The position numbers and the translations under genes are program-made. The notes under the pieces were generated by a model, which was not told where the DNA came from, searched no databases, and was given only the letters and a program-made list of their open reading frames with translations. From an uncultured virus (IMG/VR IMGVR_UViG_3300028364_000031) (taxonomy: Duplodnaviria; Heunggongvirae; Uroviricota; Caudoviricetes): 20,000 nucleotides of DNA. This document shows positions 1,469 through 19,443 of the stretch, in pieces (within the stretch, counting starts at the first letter, position 1; each line of letters begins with the position of its first letter). The stretch lies in IMG/VR virus record IMGVR_UViG_3300028364_000031; one strand, 5' to 3'.

Positions 1469-1681
1469 TTTCCGCAGCGGATGTCTGTGCATACTCGATT
1501 GCAGTCGAGCATATACACAAGTCTCCTTGCTTAGATGACTGGATTTGAACCAGCGACTTCCACCCTCTAGGCGGCACTCTGACCTGACTGAGCTACATCT
1601 AACTTTGTGAGCACTGCAAAATTGCAATACTTCTGAATACTTCGGATTTCACCAGCACATCTTGCAAGATGTGCTGGTTAC
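1469..1681 (-). ncRNA. Structured RNA module A with embedded tRNA-like core
   Basis: Minus strand order: 28-nt perfect palindrome (1651-1678), ATTCAGAAGTA, hairpin, TGCTC, AAAG, tRNA-like core, CAAGGAG, hairpin, ATCCG-CTG-CGGAAA. Module B has the same order. Confidence 0.7.
1531..1602 (-). pseudogene. tRNA-like element with 5-nt anticodon loop and no encoded CCA
   Basis: TTAGATG-TA-GCTC AGTCAGGTCA GAGT-G-CCGCC TAGAG GGTGG-AAGTC-GCTGG TTCAAAT CCAGT-CATCTAA-GCA. Confidence 0.8.
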
Positions 1682-1899
1682 TTTCCGTTGCGGATATGCC
1701 TAAACATGTTCATAGGCTCCTGAGTATGATGGTTGGGCTTGAACCAACGACGCCCGCTTGTTAGCGGTGCTCTACCAACTGAGCTACATCAAACTTTTTT
1801 CGAGCATTATAATACAGTATTATAATACTTCTGAATTTAAAGGCCGTGGTGGAAAGGTTATTTACGGTGTAAAAAGTTTAACCACCACGGTGCTACTTT
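1682..1899 (-). ncRNA. Structured RNA module B with embedded tRNA-like core
   Basis: Minus strand order: AAAGTA, CCGTGGTGG/CCACCACGG hairpin, ATTCAGAAGTA, hairpin, TGCTC, AAAG, tRNA-like core, CAGGAG, hairpin, ATCCG-CAA-CGGAAA. Confidence 0.7.
1725..1793 (-). pseudogene. tRNA-like element with 4-nt anticodon loop and no encoded CCA
   Basis: TTTGATG-TA-GCTC AGTTGGTA GAGC-A-CCGCT AACA AGCGG-GCGTC-GTTGG TTCAAGC CCAAC-CATCATA-CTCA. Confidence 0.8.
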
Positions 1900-12969: not shown

Positions 12970-13680
12970 TTATTCAACAAGTTTAATAATATAGTTAGCC
13001 GCTTTAGAAAACACAGTTTGGTCATCGTCTAACTCTAACTGTTCACTCAGTTCATCTATCGTTTTTATATCGTATTCCAAACCCTGCTCGGTTTCCCGAT
13101 AACGGATTGACAGTGGGCCGTACAGGTACTTGTTTATATACATTATAATACCTTCACAATTTGGAAACGTTTCCCTAAAGCGTTCTATTTTATGAACTTT
13201 TATGTTATTAGCCACTAATAAATACTCACCATTCGGGACATCACCCTCAATGATTTTAGTGGCTGGACCAACTCGTAATTTTTTGTACAGTTCATTCGAT
13301 GCTAAGAGTATGTTGCCTCTACCGGTTCTAGTATTTCGTGCAATTTGATTAGCTGCCATTCCTACCATCATGGCGGGTCTATCTTCAACCATTGAACCTT
13401 CGAGGCCCATATGATGCTCTGCCGAGTTATGAGAAATTTCTGCAATCTTCTGTAGCATGGCCTCAAAAATTTCATCTGTTGAAGATGCTTGTGCTTCCAT
13501 TTTGGGGGAAACATTATGGCTTTGTGTAATAACAAACGTGTTTTCTATATCTAAATTGCATACTATTACAGCGGTATGATTCGGAAAAATGTGTTTCATA
13601 TCATCTATGTTTAGTATGATTGAAGAGGGGTGTACCCAATGCTCTTCGGGTAGTGTGTGGATGTTAATCATGTCGTTCAT
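12970..13680 (-). CDS. Hypothetical protein with major-capsid(gp23)-like segment
   Basis: 236 aa, AAGGAG RBS; AANQIARNTRTGRGNILLAS resembles the T4-type gp23 motif ANxIARxTxRGxGNFIIxS. Confidence 0.8.
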   Translation of the reverse strand: MNDMINIHTLPEEHWVHPSSIILNIDDMKHIFPNHTAVIVCNLDIENTFVITQSHNVSPKMEAQASSTDEIFEAMLQKIAEISHNSAEHHMGLEGSMVEDRPAMMVGMAANQIARNTRTGRGNILLASNELYKKLRVGPATKIIEGDVPNGEYLLVANNIKVHKIERFRETFPNCEGIIMYINKYLYGPLSIRYRETEQGLEYDIKTIDELSEQLELDDDQTVFSKAANYIIKLVE

Positions 13681-13698
13681 ATTTCTCCTTAGTTTTTA

Positions 13699-13727
13699 AC
13701 TATAACAGCTTGGAGAAAATTTTACAA
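13699..13727 (-). promoter_or_regulatory. Sigma70-type promoter
   Basis: TTGTAA-17nt-TATAGT upstream of the RBS. Confidence 0.55.
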
Positions 13728-13732
13728 GAAAA

Positions 13733-13880
13733 AATGTAGGAAAGTGAATAGCGCCTTTTTAAAAGTCTGTTGCTCTAACCATCTGAGCTACCTCTCAACT
13801 TGTTGAGAGGGCAGGACTCGAACCTGCGACCTACAGATTACCATAATTTGTAGAAGGATGCACTAAAAATGGCCTACATT
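13733..13880 (-). ncRNA. YrlA/Y-RNA-like RNA with circularly permuted tRNA-Lys(TTT) domain (unit 1)
   Basis: AATGTAGG/CCTACATT outer stem enclosing TCTGT, T arm GCAGG-TTCGAGT-CCTGC, closed acceptor CCTCTCAAC/GTTGAGAGG, D arm GCTC..GAGC, then ACAGA-CTTTTAA. Confidence 0.8.
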
Positions 13881-13892
13881 GTTTAAATAATA

Positions 13893-13978
13893 CGTCGAAG
13901 GGAAAGTACCCACACTTAATAGTGTTACGGGGTTTTGACCCGCTAGATAGAAGGATGTATGGACATGGCTCTTCAACG
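13893..13978 (-). ncRNA. Y-RNA-like repeat unit 2 (no tRNA domain)
   Basis: CGTTGAAG/CTTCGACG stem, GCCATGT, inner stem TCCATAC/GTGTGGG, CATCCTTCTA and TACTTTCC. Confidence 0.7.
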
Positions 13979-13990
13979 TTTTCAAAATTA

Positions 13991-14060
13991 GTAAAGGAAA
14001 GTATCATCGCTAGTTTTTTATCAAAGAAAAGGTAGAAGGATGCGAATGAAATGGCCTTAT
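13991..14060 (-). ncRNA. Y-RNA-like repeat unit 3 (no tRNA domain)
   Basis: AAGG/CCTT stem, GCCATTT, inner stem TCATTCGC/GCGATGA, CATCCTTCTA and TACTTTCC. Confidence 0.7.
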
Positions 14061-14073
14061 ATTATAGTTTAAT

Positions 14074-14115
14074 ATTTATTTTTAAAACCACTCGTAAATG
14101 ATTTTAAAAATAAAT
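14074..14115. terminator. AT-rich 14-bp inverted repeat (terminator or processing hairpin) after the large RNA
   Basis: ATTTATTTTTAAAA ... TTTTAAAAATAAAT. Confidence 0.45.
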
Positions 14116-14116
14116 T

Positions 14117-15000
14117 CTGAAGACTGAGATTACATCTTTCAGATGGATGCCTTTGGACCGTACCCAGACCTTTGCGTTCAGCCGGTTAATCCGTTATCCA
14201 CTAAGACGCGTTAGCTATCCTAGTATCATCCAACGATGCCTTTTTTAAGGTGTAGCTGTTCACCTGTCATACACTACTACTCGACCTTCGATCTTCCGCT
14301 GACCTTCAGGGCCATTCAAAGTCGCTAAACTTTTACGTCTTCTCTCCGATCAAACAACGCCACCTTGCGAGTTTTGTTGCACCAGATTCCGTTAGGTCTG
14401 ATATTAATCGTCTTTAATAGTTGTACCGAGGCAGACTTTCGCTTTGAAAACAATAATGGGGCTTGAACCCACAATATTCTGATATTGAGTCAGATGCCTG
14501 TACCAATTCGGCTATATCGTTACCTACCAAGAAGTGCTGCCTCAGTTGCTTCATACCTTGTTAGATACAAAATACAACACTCCTCACTGTCTTTTGCCTT
14601 GCGAGCTACTTGACATCTTTTCACGACTGAAGCGATTAAACTTCTTCCGATCAAGATGGTATAGAGCATCTTTTGCGCGAACAATCGAACTCTACACCTA
14701 CACCTTAGTATTACGTGCTCATCGAGTTGGCTGGCAAAGATGGTAGCGCCAACTACCTTATCGCTCACCGAATGGCTCTGCGACTATCCTTTCGGACCTT
14801 CACCCTCAATTTCACACCTACCGCACTTATTATCATACGGGAAAGCCTTAGAGTCTACACTCGTACTTTCTAACTGGTGCTTGCATGACTTGACCCTTAC
14901 GGGACGGGAAAAATGTAGGACATTTTCCCTTTACTACGGTTACCCGTAGCAAGCATTCATGCTTTAAACTGCTGATCTGAATCTTTCGATCTAGATCATG
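14117..15000 (-). ncRNA. Large structured ncRNA, GOLLD-like (~880 nt)
   Basis: No credible ORF and GC-richer than the flanks. Many GNRA-capped hairpins (GATC-GAAA-GATT, CTACGG-GTAA-CCGTAG, CCC-GTAA-GGG, TCC-GAAA-GGA, CTC-GCAA-GG). Dedicated promoter, 3' GTAATCTCAG end, embedded tRNA and phage tRNA-cluster context. Confidence 0.8.
14449..14521 (-). tRNA. tRNA-Leu(CAA)-like element embedded in the large ncRNA (short variable loop, U37, no CCA)
   Basis: AACGATA/TATTGTT acceptor, GCC..GGC D arm, TCTGA-CTCAATA-TCAGA arm, GTGGG-TTCAAGC-CCCAT T arm. Confidence 0.75.
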
Positions 15001-15006
15001 TGATAC

Positions 15007-15035
15007 ATATTACTATCTTATTTCCAATCTGTCAA
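15007..15035 (-). promoter_or_regulatory. Sigma70-type promoter of the large ncRNA
   Basis: TTGACA-17nt-TAATAT; predicted start near 15000. Confidence 0.8.
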
Positions 15036-15063
15036 CTCTTTTTTGAACTTTTTTCACTTTATT

Positions 15064-15345
15064 TTATTGGGAATAGTTTTTTATGATTTCTTCACCGATA
15101 GAAAGTTGGGTTTCGAACGTATCACCACCCATTTCCATTTTAACTCGAAGAACCCCATACCTTCCTTTAGATATATGTGCTTCCTTTACTCTGAGGGTGA
15201 CCTGTTCAAGTGCTTCGGCCATAAACCTTTCAAGTATATGACCCGGACAGTTGTCCGGGTCGGGTAGATAACACTTAGTCATAAAGTCGGCCAAGCTGGC
15301 TTTAACAAAACCATCTAAGTCCTCCACATAGCGCTCCAGTTTCAT
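15064..15345 (-). CDS. Hypothetical protein
   Basis: 93 aa, TAATG coupling to the vWA gene. Confidence 0.75.
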   Translation of the reverse strand: MKLERYVEDLDGFVKASLADFMTKCYLPDPDNCPGHILERFMAEALEQVTLRVKEAHISKGRYGVLRVKMEMGGDTFETQLSIGEEIIKNYSQ

Positions 15346-15938
15346 TACTGGTTGGAAGCCCTATAACTAGCTACAGTTTGACTCATGTCTACATATGCAG
15401 CACTTACACCGTCGGCTGTTGCCCTAAAGTTAATATTGTTGGAGATGCCTCTACTGGCACCTTCCTCAAATGCATCTTGATTTGCCGCTAGATATACAAT
15501 CTGCCAACCTTTTTCGCCTTCAGCTTTCTGTATCATCTCTTTAATCTGATAATTGTTATATTCCTTACTGGCATTTTCCATACCATCGGTTATAATACAG
15601 ATAATAGCTTTTTCAGGATTCTTTTGCATCAATGTGCTTATGGCTTTACCAATTGCATCATTCATAGCAGTCATCCCTCTAGGACCAATAGTTTTTAATG
15701 GTTGTACTTCGGCTAATGGTACAGAATTGAGTTTTACCTCATATTGATCATCAAATAACACTAGAGTTAGATTTGCATCACCCTCTACCGCTTTCTGTTC
15801 GGTGAGGAAAGTGTTGAATCCTCCAACCGCATCAGATTCGATACTGGACATTGATCCTGATCTATCCGCAATAATTAAAATTTCTACGGCATCATTTTCT
15901 GTAAATTTAAACGGGACGTACTCTGCGTACTCTGACAT
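15345..15938 (-). CDS. von Willebrand factor A (vWA) domain protein
   Basis: MIDAS motifs DRSGSM, GMTAMNDA and IITDGMEN; AAGGAG RBS. Confidence 0.92.
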   Translation of the reverse strand: MSEYAEYVPFKFTENDAVEILIIADRSGSMSSIESDAVGGFNTFLTEQKAVEGDANLTLVLFDDQYEVKLNSVPLAEVQPLKTIGPRGMTAMNDAIGKAISTLMQKNPEKAIICIITDGMENASKEYNNYQIKEMIQKAEGEKGWQIVYLAANQDAFEEGASRGISNNINFRATADGVSAAYVDMSQTVASYRASNQ

Positions 15939-16023
15939 AGTTTTTCTCCTTAAGTAATATATTCAAAGTTCAAATGTTCAGAGGATTCGAGCCTCTAGGT
16001 TCTAAGACCACATTTGAACATAT

Positions 16024-16282: not shown

Positions 16283-17269
16283 TTATTGTTCTAAATGTCT
16301 AACAATGCGTTCTATCCGTGGTCTCAAAAATTTAACACCACCAGAATCTCTAACTTCTAGTTCACATGATAATAATCCGGTGAACATTTCAAATTTACCT
16401 TCTATGTTTTTAATTGTATAGTCCACTTTGCTAATTGATGTTGGGTAATTGTGGGTATACCTTGGTGATGGGCTTTTATGATAAATGTCCTTGAACCATC
16501 CAGTAACTTCAACCTGACCACCAGAGCCACAGCGTTCAACCGCAAAAATGTTGTTCCATAGATCAGTGCGCTCTACTGGAGTCAGTGAGGATGATTCCAG
16601 CCCTCTAATAATTTGTAATACCGTGGATCGGGCTTTATTTAAATACTGACCAACCTCCGTGCCCCCAAAAACTTCGTTTGAAGAGAGCTTGATTATTGTG
16701 TCATGTATATTCTTCCAATCACTAGATGTTCCTACCACCCGTATTTTAGGAAACCCGCACATGTACATTGAATATGTATAATATGGACTAACTATATCCC
16801 CAAATGAACTCATAGCCGCAAAATCATATAGCGTGTCAAATGTATTCATTTCTGGAAAAAATAGTGAATGATCAACATTTATTTTATTTTTCAGTTTGTT
16901 AGTAATCCTATCAATGGCTAATACGATACTGCCACCAGATTCTACCAATATTTCTTCTTTATCATCACTATCGGTAAAGAATTTTCTATAGTCTTCGGGA
17001 TTTTCTGAAACAATAGTAGCAATTTCACCCAACACAGTCAACCACACGTTTTCATGGGTTAGATATATTCCTTTGTGTGCATTGTATGCCATTTCAAAAT
17101 ATTGCATATGTCCTAATACTGGGATACTCCCCTGATTAGATTCATGAACAATTTTGCCCTTTCCATAGATCAAATCATTCATTTTGTTTGAGTTTTTTGT
17201 AGAGTTTACTCCATCTATGTACGATAAGCTTGTGTTTAAATCGAATTCTGTTATAAAATTATTATTCAT
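16283..17269 (-). CDS. DUF4419 domain protein
   Basis: AYNAH..L....VWLT, CGFPKIRVVGTSSDW and GSGG..VTGW motifs. Confidence 0.8.
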   Translation of the reverse strand: MNNNFITEFDLNTSLSYIDGVNSTKNSNKMNDLIYGKGKIVHESNQGSIPVLGHMQYFEMAYNAHKGIYLTHENVWLTVLGEIATIVSENPEDYRKFFTDSDDKEEILVESGGSIVLAIDRITNKLKNKINVDHSLFFPEMNTFDTLYDFAAMSSFGDIVSPYYTYSMYMCGFPKIRVVGTSSDWKNIHDTIIKLSSNEVFGGTEVGQYLNKARSTVLQIIRGLESSSLTPVERTDLWNNIFAVERCGSGGQVEVTGWFKDIYHKSPSPRYTHNYPTSISKVDYTIKNIEGKFEMFTGLLSCELEVRDSGGVKFLRPRIERIVRHLEQ

Positions 17270-19083: not shown

Positions 19084-19443
19084 TCATGTTAGCAGTTTTA
19101 AATGCTTCAAACCTTCTGCCAACTCCATTGGGATTGGTCCTATTCCTACGCAAGTTTGTGTGGGTCCCCCAAAAACCGTAAACCCGGAATCTACCACTTT
19201 GGTTATTCCACAAACATCCATATACTTGGAATACAATTCTTCTAGCTCTATTTGTGTATCCACCGCGCAAGTGATCTTAAAAGCGTGATCGGAGTTTTTA
19301 TACGCTTCAGCATATTCTGGAAACCTCTTTTCGGAATCCCAATAAGCATGTAAAAAAGCGTGACCAGCTTGTGAAGTCATTTTACCTCGAATACCATTCA
19401 TTTCTTTAAGAGCTTCTTTAGAAAATATGCAATACATCTTCAT
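19084..19443 (-). CDS. pth2: Peptidyl-tRNA hydrolase, Pth2 family
   Basis: GKMTSQAGHA, KI and VVDSGFT....T.TCVGIGP motifs. Confidence 0.92.
   Translation of the reverse strand: MKMYCIFSKEALKEMNGIRGKMTSQAGHAFLHAYWDSEKRFPEYAEAYKNSDHAFKITCAVDTQIELEELYSKYMDVCGITKVVDSGFTVFGGPTQTCVGIGPIPMELAEGLKHLKLLT

What the first reader, a model, noticed from the sequence alone, without database searches (positions are those of the whole stretch)
14117..15035. GOLLD-like giant RNA with a tRNA-Leu(CAA) cargo held in a dedicated stem
Seen: about 880 nt without a credible ORF, with a near-consensus promoter, many GNRA hairpins and a 3' inverted repeat. A tRNA-Leu(CAA)-like cloverleaf with U37 and no CCA is enclosed by GAGGCAG/CTGCCTC. 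Known: GOLLD RNAs occur in phage tRNA clusters, can include tRNAs in a variable region and have no established function. The family call is from recalled motifs. Inference: possible co-transcription or interaction with the adjacent Y-like array.
Basis: partly seen in the sequence, partly recalled or inferred. Interest (0 to 1): 0.7.

Follow-up and report, generated by a model that had tools for sequence, protein, structure and literature searches.

The report
Phage GOLLD RNA with tRNA-shaped insert
This gene-free stretch of a lake phage encodes a member of the known GOLLD family of giant cage-forming RNAs, with a tRNA-shaped piece in its central linker; the layout is already described, so the find is real but ordinary.

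Summary
On the minus strand, 14121-14585 matches Rfam GOLLD (RF02032) over the full model at 151.4 bits (gathering 150, E 6e-41). About 415 nt upstream form a structured 5' domain shared with relatives. A TTGACA-17-TAATAT promoter lies at 15035-15007.

A 74-nt cloverleaf with anticodon CAA sits at 14448-14521, in the linker between the two domains. It has U37, U73, a short variable loop and no CCA. It is therefore tRNA-shaped but is probably not a leucine tRNA.

The GAGGCAG/CUGCCUC stem is real but not dedicated to the tRNA. It is a GOLLD-wide helix, probably P15, kept by compensatory changes and present in relatives without a tRNA.

In the closest phage clade, 28 of 30 loci carry a tRNA-model match in the same slot. 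Anticodons differ, the D, anticodon and T arms are intact, and the acceptor ends are weak.

tRNAs or pseudo-tRNAs in GOLLD linkers are published (PMC12286853, PMC6582537). This scan has found the same layout on other DNA at least 15 times.

Verdict: a new member of a known kind, of low interest. Expression, cage formation and any link to the adjacent Y-RNA-like array are untested.

The parts
15007..15035 (-). Sigma-70-type promoter: -35 TTGACA (15035-15030), 17-nt spacer, -10 TAATAT (15012-15007). The transcription start is inferred near 15000.
   Evidence: 10 of 12 matches; coordinates. A promoter-like site scoring at least 10 of 12 lies at the equivalent distance in 8 of 29 distinct relatives, the window included. 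The count is 0 of 29 in an internal control region.
14974..14997 (-). Leader hairpin with a GAAA loop at the inferred 5' end of the RNA.
   Evidence: (I4: 11-nt arms, 82% complementary). It is not conserved in relatives (alignment).
14586..15000 (-). GOLLD 5' domain, about 415 nt. By analogy with env-38 residues 1-420 it would form the cap of the cage.
   Evidence: It aligns with the 5' parts of 8 related phage GOLLDs. RNAalifold predicts 182 pairs over the whole RNA, 128 of them with a compensatory change. Rfam's model does not cover this half.
14121..14585 (-). GOLLD 3' domain (Rfam RF02032 match, model positions 1-416). It includes P13 (14585-14579 with 14535-14529) and the P14 hairpin (14578-14545).
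   Evidence: 151.4 bits, gathering 150, E 6e-41; coordinates.
14537..14543 (-). 5' strand (GAGGCAG) of the helix that closes the linker. It is probably P15 of the published numbering and lies in the bulge between P14 and P13.
   Evidence: I2.
14435..14528 (-). Variable linker (J13/15), 94 nt, which holds the tRNA-shaped module.
   Evidence: alignment (insert between model positions about 62 and 140). The equivalent linker is disordered and faces the cage interior in env-38 (PMC12286853, passages read).
14448..14521 (-). tRNA-shaped module: anticodon CAA, U37, U73, 5-nt variable loop, no CCA.
14428..14434 (-). 3' strand (CUGCCUC) of the linker-closing helix.
   Evidence: I2.
14116..14143 (-). 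Terminal hairpin (P27) bearing the conserved GUAAUCUCAG loop. In this copy a 6-bp inverted repeat extends it past the Rfam end.
   Evidence: alignment and (I15).

Best explanation
The stretch is a full-length GOLLD RNA gene of about 880 nt, on the minus strand of a lake phage's tRNA island, with its own sigma-70-type promoter.

Shown here:
- Family membership by covariance model.
- A structured 5' domain shared with relatives.
- A pseudoknot-like junction, in the order P13 5' strand, P14 hairpin, P15 5' strand, P13 3' strand, linker, P15 3' strand. It pins both ends of a 94-nt linker.
- A well-formed tRNA-shaped module inside that linker.

Inferred from published cryo-EM of other GOLLDs: the RNA assembles into a closed 12- to 14-mer cage. 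The 5' domains form the caps, the 3' domains form the ring, and the linker points into the lumen. Each cage would then hold 12-14 tethered tRNA-shaped modules.

Inferred from my comparison of relatives: selection keeps the tRNA fold (D, anticodon and T arms) but not decoding or charging. Anticodons drift, acceptor ends are weak and most copies lack CCA. The module therefore most likely works as a covalently tethered tRNA mimic, a bait or decoy for some tRNA-binding factor, and not as a leucine tRNA waiting to be cut out. What it binds is unknown.
For: Family membership. RF02032 scores 151.4 bits against a gathering score of 150, E 6e-41, over model positions 1-416. Of the related phage loci scanned, 27 of 30 pass gathering: 9 of 10 and 18 of 20.

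5' domain. It aligns with 8 relatives. RNAalifold predicts 182 pairs, 128 of them with compensatory change.

P15 helix. 98.4% of cells are paired, 4 of 7 pairs change on both sides, and 0 of 500 shuffles reach the covariation score. Slid controls give 29-44% paired.

Context. All 12 ARAGORN tRNAs lie on the same strand and neighbouring genes match PHROG families.

The insert is near-universal in the clade. The Rfam tRNA model matches inside the linker in 28 of 30 loci.

The fold is kept. In 22 distinct ARAGORN-called inserts, D pairs are 66/66, anticodon-stem pairs 108/110 and T pairs 110/110. There are 14 distinct anticodon-stem and 15 distinct T-stem sequences.

The acceptor end is not kept. 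A full 7-pair acceptor occurs in 2 of 22 inserts, against 99 of 116 free tRNAs from the same loci. By a frame-based count, acceptor pairing is 0.68 against 0.83, and 0.53 against 0.80 for the top three pairs.

There are 14 different anticodons among the 22 inserts, two of them 4-nt.

In the window, the insert has U37 and no CCA. All 11 free tRNAs have a purine at 37 and 8 of 11 encode CCA.

Published work. The linker faces the cage interior and tRNAs are 'sometimes present' in it (PMC12286853, passages). A pseudo-tRNA inside a Mycobacterium GOLLD gave no detectable separate expression (PMC6582537, passages).
Against: - The Rfam score clears gathering by only 1.4 bits. The tRNA insert and a longer insert near the 3' end cost score.
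- No RNA data exist for this locus, so transcript ends, abundance and processing are unknown.
- Cage formation is taken from two other GOLLDs and was not tested here.
- The window's own insert is one of the two best-formed of 22. It has 7 of 7 acceptor pairs, U8, G18G19, a normal T loop and 56.5 bits, within the 43-74 bit range of the window's free tRNAs. Excision and use cannot be excluded for this copy.
- Three of 22 related inserts do carry CCA after the discriminator. In the larger sample the anticodon loop is mostly canonical: U33 in 20 of 22 and a purine at 37 in 19 of 22. Some inserts may therefore be working tRNAs.
- My two acceptor-stem counts differ in strength (2/22 against 99/116, and 0.68 against 0.83).
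- The name P15 is inferred from the published terms 'J13/15' and 'L15'. I could not see the published secondary-structure figure.
Confidence: 0.7

Rival explanations
1. The insert is a working tRNA gene. GOLLD is also its precursor. RNase P and a 3' nuclease cut the tRNA out, the CCA-adding enzyme completes it, and it decodes UUG. The two GOLLD halves stay together through P13 and P15.
For: The window's cloverleaf is complete, with 7 of 7 acceptor pairs and 56.5 bits. In relatives GOLLD lies directly upstream of free tRNAs, about 10 nt away in L015 and L037. Processing enzymes would therefore act on the same transcripts. Three of 22 related inserts encode CCA. P13 and P15 interleave, so they could hold a nicked RNA together (inference).
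Against: The module has U37, U73 and no CCA. All 11 free tRNAs of the window have a purine at 37 and 8 of 11 encode CCA. It has a short variable loop, whereas bacterial leucine tRNAs have a long arm and A73 (my own knowledge, not a call). In 20 of 22 related inserts the acceptor stem is not a full 7 pairs. Northern blots found no separate pseudo-tRNA from a Mycobacterium GOLLD (PMC6582537).
Confidence: 0.17
2. The insert is a decaying relic of a tRNA captured by recombination in a tRNA island. It has no function of its own, because the linker tolerates any filler.
For: The linker is the variable, disordered part of GOLLD (PMC12286853). Many GOLLDs have short linkers without a tRNA. L042/L136 keeps only a truncated remnant and L145 has no tRNA-model match. 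Anticodons differ among relatives.
Against: 28 of 30 clade members still match the tRNA model in the linker. Their D, anticodon and T stems are 98-100% paired although the stem sequences differ. That is not expected of neutral decay. Embedded inserts resemble each other (best identity 0.59-0.76 among 8 candidates) at least as much as any of 116 free tRNAs (0.62-0.68). This argues for one maintained lineage.
Confidence: 0.1
3. The stretch is not a member of GOLLD proper. It is a different large RNA that shares only some 3' motifs, and the borderline Rfam score is misleading.
For: The score is only 1.4 bits above gathering. The L14 loop differs from the consensus (alignment).
Against: The match is full length (positions 1-416) with E 6e-41. 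There is continuous homology to relatives scoring 159-213 bits. The invariant 3' terminal motif and the P15 covariation are shared with the wider family.
Confidence: 0.03

Closest known systems
GOLLD RNA (Rfam RF02032). Solved examples are env-38 (833 nt, 14-mer cage, PDB 9MEE) and Streptococcus agalactiae GOLLD (700 nt, 12-mer, PDB 9L0R), as listed in PMC12990946 and PMC12286853.
   Same: The 3' domain matches over the full model. There is a 5' domain of about 415 nt (env-38: residues 1-420) and a variable linker between P13 and P15. The invariant 3' terminal loop motif is present. The gene sits in a phage tRNA island.
   Different: The linker is 94 nt with a folded tRNA-shaped module, whereas env-38 has a disordered 42-nt linker. 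An extra insert lies in the last multi-stem region, and the L14 loop sequence differs from the consensus. Cage formation was not tested here.
GOLLD with an embedded tRNA or pseudo-tRNA: Mycolicibacterium tRNA-Phe in J13/15 (Morgado 2020, cited in PMC12990946, paper not held) and the pseudo-tRNA in the Mycobacterium aubagnense GOLLD (PMC6582537).
   Same: The tRNA-shaped insert occupies the same slot. There is doubt that it is a working tRNA.
   Different: The host range differs (lake phage, not an actinobacterial tRNA array). The anticodon is different. This copy has an unusually complete acceptor stem.
ROOL RNA (Rfam family; the other cage-forming phage RNA).
   Same: It is a large ornate phage RNA found near tRNA islands, with an interior-facing variable linker (PMC12286853).
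   Different: The sequence and fold are unrelated. No ROOL match at E<=1 was found in 13000-16000.
YrlA, the tRNA-like bacterial and phage Y RNA (Rfam RF02553; PMC4201824).
   Same: It is also a tRNA mimic embedded in a larger RNA. A YrlA-like element lies about 250 nt downstream of this GOLLD.
   Different: YrlA mimics the D and T arms only and binds Ro60. The GOLLD insert is a complete cloverleaf, and no Ro60 gene was seen among the window ORFs that I scanned.

Membership tests
GOLLD RNA (RF02032) | Covariance-model score at or above Rfam's gathering score, over the full model | tested here: met
   151.4 bits against 150, E 6e-41, model positions 1-416. The margin is small.
GOLLD RNA (RF02032) | Conserved P13-P14 hairpin, and a linker closed by a helix between the P14/P13 bulge and the segment after the linker | tested here: met
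   For the helix, 98.4% of cells are paired, 4 of 7 pairs show compensatory change and 0 of 500 shuffles reach the score. Wider family: 36 of 56 loci form 7 of 7 pairs, against 260 of 2412 controls.
GOLLD RNA (RF02032) | Structured, less conserved 5' domain of roughly 400 nt | tested here: met
   About 415 nt align with 8 relatives. There is compensatory change throughout.
GOLLD RNA (RF02032) | Phage or prophage setting near tRNA genes | tested here: met
   12 tRNAs lie in the window on the same strand. Neighbouring genes match PHROG families.
GOLLD RNA (RF02032) | Homo-oligomeric closed cage | not testable with these tools
   Known only from cryo-EM of env-38 and S. agalactiae GOLLD (PMC12286853, PMC12990946).
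GOLLD RNA (RF02032) | Expressed as one long RNA | not testable with these tools
   No RNA run is listed for this DNA.
Bacterial tRNA-Leu | Cloverleaf that matches the tRNA model | tested here: met
   Rfam tRNA model 56.5 bits. ARAGORN calls a cloverleaf with 7 of 7 acceptor pairs.
Bacterial tRNA-Leu | Long variable arm (class II) and A73 discriminator (features recalled from my own knowledge) | tested here: not met
   The variable loop is 5 nt and position 73 is U.
Bacterial tRNA-Leu | Purine at position 37, and encoded CCA like the phage's other tRNAs | tested here: not met
   Position 37 is U and no CCA follows. All 11 free tRNAs in the window have a purine at 37 and 8 of 11 encode CCA.
ROOL RNA | Match to the Rfam model | tested here: not met
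   No match at E<=1 in 13000-16000.
YrlA (RF02553), for the adjacent element only | Covariance-model score at or above gathering | tested here: inconclusive
   47.9 bits against gathering 69, E 6e-9, full model, at 13745-13866. The stretch 13730-13878 folds with z -3.7.

The most novel reading that the evidence does not exclude
In this lake-phage clade the tRNA-shaped module is not occasional filler. It is a near-universal selected domain of the cage RNA (28 of 30 loci). Each cage would present a dozen or more tethered tRNA mimics that trap or recruit a host tRNA-binding factor, such as an anticodon nuclease or an RNA-repair or quality-control protein. In this phage it would act together with the YrlA-like tRNA mimic encoded directly downstream, making the locus a battery of tRNA decoys.
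Probability: 0.12. Interest if true: 0.7.

Novelty: new member of a known kind. Interest (0 to 1): 0.22.

Why it matters
GOLLD has solved cage structures but no known function, and the tRNA-shaped insert is one of the few clues to what the cage holds. This copy adds little by itself.

The clade around it is more useful. In 28 of 30 loci the slot is filled, the fold is kept and the acceptor end is lax. That gives a natural series for testing whether the insert is cut out, charged or bound by a protein.

The window's copy has an unusually complete acceptor stem but also U37, U73 and no CCA. It is a good test substrate for RNase P, CCA-adding and charging assays.

Tried and rejected
- Whole-genome search: no genome is held for this window.
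- Cultured-phage search (blastn, distant mode): only weak partial hits to three Ruegeria/Roseobacter phages, 8-28% of the query. These were not used further.
- Synteny through the upstream VWA-domain gene: 10 loci found, and 0 of 10 have GOLLD at gathering.
- Expression: no RNA holder listed. Eight lake-water metagenome DNA runs hold the stretch or part of it. Read laying was not run, because contigs of DNA runs cannot show transcripts.
- Host: the clade pattern hits 12 contigs of metagenome-assembled genomes from many phyla. I draw no host from this.
- GNRA enrichment: 4 loops, and 83 of 500 shuffles reach that number. This is not evidence of anything.
- Kissing-loop partner of the linker flank (published L20 with J13/15): I looked by eye for a complementary loop and found no consistent pairing across relatives. 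The point was dropped.
- Ro60 near the Y-like array: the upstream 197-aa protein has a VWA_2 domain (29.2 bits against a cut-off of 27). It has no sequence match to any solved structure at E<=1. No TROVE-domain match appeared among the ORFs scanned. Not all ORFs of the window were scanned against Pfam.
- Y-like array near other GOLLDs: the 10-mer shared by the three modules occurs in 0 of the 129 loci then held. There is no YrlA match at E<=0.001 in 20 related loci.
- Papers not held: Morgado 2020 and Weinberg 2009. What I say of them comes from citing papers or from memory.
- Print search for GOLLD together with Y RNA: 2 papers hold both terms (listing only). Neither title concerns an association.

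Full report
**What is there**

Rfam's covariance models place a full-length match to GOLLD (RF02032) on the minus strand at 14121-14585. It scores 151.4 bits against a gathering score of 150, E 6e-41, over model positions 1-416 (repeated on 13000-16000). The Rfam model covers only the conserved 3' half of GOLLD.

Inside the match, at 14448-14521, both the Rfam tRNA model (56.5 bits) and ARAGORN (tRNA-Leu, anticodon CAA) find a cloverleaf. No ROOL match appears at E<=1.

ORFs over the region are at most 82 aa. The three that I scanned (82, 70 and 69 aa) have no Pfam match at E<=0.01.

A TTGACA-17-TAATAT promoter lies at 15035-15007, 10 of 12. The only terminator-like site in 13500-15400 is the T arm of the embedded cloverleaf.

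**Setting**

The window carries 12 ARAGORN tRNAs, all on the minus strand. Its genes match phage protein families: a virion structural protein, glycosyltransferases, a methyltransferase and a PTH2-type peptidyl-tRNA hydrolase. No genome is held for the window. The DNA is found in lake-water metagenome runs, and no RNA run is listed.

**Relatives**

A narrower pattern for the window's own clade returned 41 loci. With the window these make 42 sequences, 32 of them distinct over the last 480 nt.

I ran Rfam on 30 of these loci:
- Ten, chosen as the closest by eye and by blastn.
- Twenty, one per distinct sequence.
- Left out were nine further copies identical to a locus kept, plus L157 and L170, where my script could not place the linker.

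GOLLD passes gathering in 27 of the 30. The misses are L033 (no match at gathering), L154 (148.0 bits) and L140 (126.5 bits). The window has the lowest score of those that pass. The tRNA insert and a longer insert near the 3' end are read as costly insertions.

**The 5' half**

An alignment of the window with eight relatives shows conserved blocks through the roughly 415 nt upstream of the Rfam match. RNAalifold predicts 182 pairs over the whole RNA, 128 of them with at least one compensatory change.

The length agrees with the 5' region of the solved env-38 GOLLD, residues 1-420 (PMC12286853, passages read). A GAAA hairpin with a nearly invariant sequence in the alignment may correspond to the published conserved GAAA loop L11a. 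That assignment is my inference.

A promoter-like site of at least 10 of 12 lies 863-913 nt upstream of the 3' end in 8 of 29 distinct clade members, the window included. None of 29 has one in an internal control region. The others may be read through from upstream tRNA genes.

**The 'dedicated stem'**

GAGGCAG (14543-14537) and CUGCCUC (14434-14428) do pair.

In the Rfam alignment the first strand falls in the 9-nt bulge between P14 and P13. The second falls just after the linker. The two Rfam consensus segments are themselves complementary (alignment; my reading).

In the nine-sequence alignment the helix is paired in 98.4% of cells. Four of seven pairs have changes on both sides, and 0 of 500 shuffles reach the covariation score. 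Sliding the partner by 1-3 columns gives 29-44% paired. RNAalifold predicts the same helix unprompted.

I also ran a crude test over the wider family. It pairs the seven bases after the conserved AAAG anchor with the best complement 30-135 nt upstream. Of 56 distinct loci, 36 reach 7 of 7 pairs with 24 different helix sequences. Only 260 of 2412 mismatched-locus controls do so. Several misses are anchor misplacements by my regular expression.

The helix is kept in clade members whose linker has no ARAGORN tRNA call (L136, L144, L145) and in the many GOLLDs with short linkers. It is therefore a core GOLLD helix that pins the ends of the linker, whatever the linker holds.

Published texts call the linker 'J13/15' (PMC12286853) and speak of 'L15' (PMC12990946). 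This fits the helix being P15, but I could not see the figures.

The order of strands is P13-5', P14 hairpin, P15-5', P13-3', linker, P15-3'. That order makes a pseudoknot.

**The tRNA-shaped module**

The window's copy has:
- 7 of 7 acceptor pairs (one G-U, the rest mostly A-U), U8, G18G19 and a normal T arm.
- C32, U33, anticodon CAA, U37, A38.
- A 5-nt variable loop, U73 and no CCA.

The window's 11 free tRNAs all have a purine at 37, and 8 encode CCA (9 if one shifted frame is allowed). Bacterial leucine tRNAs have a long variable arm and A73. That is my own knowledge, not a call. The label 'Leu' therefore says only what the anticodon would read.

**The slot across the clade**

- The Rfam tRNA model matches inside the linker in 28 of 30 loci. 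The misses are L042, which keeps a truncated remnant, and L145.
- ARAGORN calls a tRNA there in 22 of 32 distinct sequences.
- The 22 carry 14 different anticodons, two of them four bases long. The commonest are UAG (five) and UCU (four). An amber-type CUA is in this set. An opal-type UCA was called in the first ARAGORN run only.
- U33 is present in 20 of 22, a purine at 37 in 19, a 7-nt loop in 20, and CCA in 3. A full seven-pair acceptor stem occurs in only 2, the window and L168.
- Among 116 distinct free tRNAs from the loci held at that point, the figures are 114, 112, 111, 45 and 99.

A second count uses fixed frames and leaves out class II tRNAs:

| Arm | Embedded inserts | Free tRNAs |
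|---|---|---|
| D | 1.00 | 0.94 |
| Anticodon stem | 0.98 | 0.96 |
| T | 1.00 | 0.98 |
| Acceptor | 0.68 | 0.83 |
| Acceptor, outer three pairs | 0.53 | 0.80 |

The embedded set has 14 distinct anticodon-stem and 15 distinct T-stem sequences among the 22. The two acceptor measures agree in direction but differ in strength, and neither corrects for shared ancestry.

Each embedded insert is as close to another insert (best identity 0.59-0.76 among 8 candidates) as to any of 116 free tRNAs (0.62-0.68). None is closest to a free tRNA of its own nominal type. L038 and L067 are 76% identical, yet one reads CUU and the other CUA.

Taken together, the fold is under selection, while the anticodon and the acceptor end are much less so.

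**How it most likely works**

Shown here: a GOLLD gene with a promoter, two structured domains, a pseudoknotted junction and a folded tRNA-shaped module in the linker.

Taken from cryo-EM of env-38 and S. agalactiae GOLLD (PMC12286853, PMC12990946; passages read):
- The RNA forms a closed 12- to 14-mer cage.
- The 5' domains form the caps and the 3' domains form the ring.
- The linker is disordered and faces the lumen.

It follows, by inference, that each cage of this RNA would hold a dozen or so tethered tRNA-shaped modules. The authors of those papers suggest exposure of covalently linked tRNAs when the cage opens, or 'inhibited storage' of the tRNA.

My comparison favours a tethered mimic over a stored tRNA for the clade as a whole. 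For this copy I put the mimic reading first, at about 0.5 to 0.6 of the total. Excision to a working tRNA stands at about 0.17 and a neutral relic at about 0.1. Three related inserts with CCA, and the window's intact acceptor stem, are the main facts against a uniform 'pseudo-tRNA' reading.

**The neighbouring Y-like array**

Downstream on the same strand, between 14060 and 13730, three modules share a 5' motif. The 10-mer CAUCCUUCUA occurs three times. They also share a pyrimidine-rich 3' motif.

The last module matches Rfam YrlA below gathering: 47.9 bits against 69, E 6e-9, full model. It folds far better than shuffles, z -3.7, 0 of 200. The first two modules fold no better than chance.

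No terminator-like site separates the array from GOLLD. A perfect TATAAT without a good -35 lies between them. Co-transcription is therefore possible but not shown.

The adjacency is not conserved. No YrlA match at E<=0.001 appears in 20 related loci, where GOLLD is followed by ordinary tRNAs. The 10-mer is absent from the 129 loci held at that point.

**Comparison with what is known, and novelty**

tRNAs in the GOLLD linker are stated in PMC12286853 ('sometimes present') and in PMC12990946 (tRNA-Phe in J13/15 of a Mycolicibacterium GOLLD, citing Morgado 2020, which I could not read). PMC6582537 reports a pseudo-tRNA inside a Mycobacterium GOLLD with no detectable separate expression (passages). 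That paper also says the founding paper (Weinberg 2009, not held) noted a predicted tRNA gene in GOLLD.

Earlier notes of this scan report the same layout on other DNA at least 15 times. They reach the same reading: shape kept, acceptor end not. I saw those notes after my own counts. They are not independent evidence.

The finding is therefore a new member of a known kind. The one thing that goes a little beyond the papers I could read is the near-universal occupancy of the slot in this clade, 28 of 30.

Noticed in passing
window 13730-14060, minus strand: Three tandem modules share the 10-mer CAUCCUUCUA near their 5' ends and a pyrimidine-rich motif near their 3' ends. The last (13745-13866) matches Rfam YrlA below gathering (47.9 bits against 69, E 6e-9) and folds with z -3.7. 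The first two fold no better than shuffles. No Ro60 (TROVE) gene was seen among the ORFs scanned.
   Followed up: partly
window 15345-15938, minus strand: The 197-aa protein just upstream of the GOLLD promoter has a VWA_2 domain (29.2 bits against a cut-off of 27) and matches PHROG 7371 (function unknown). Relatives occur in 10 viral contigs, and none of those 10 loci has GOLLD at gathering. Ro60 proteins also end in a VWA domain, but no sequence link to Ro60 was found.
   Followed up: partly
window 1529-1602 and 1722-1794, minus strand: There are two more odd tRNA-like genes. One is a class I cloverleaf with the serine anticodon AGA. The other has a 6-nt anticodon loop (two-base 'anticodon') and no U33. 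Neither encodes CCA.
   Followed up: no
window 19084-19443, minus strand: A PTH2-type peptidyl-tRNA hydrolase gene (PF01981, 51.9 bits) lies in the tRNA island.
   Followed up: no
L140 1742-2047: In one related phage contig the GOLLD is followed, about 650 nt downstream, by a permuted tmRNA (RF04321, 124.6 bits).
   Followed up: no
L036 982-1053 and L067 979-1051: Two related GOLLDs carry linker modules whose anticodons would read stop codons (UCA and CUA).
   Followed up: no
window 16283-17269, minus strand: A 328-aa protein with a DUF4419 domain (95.2 bits) sits between two tRNA genes in the island.
   Followed up: no
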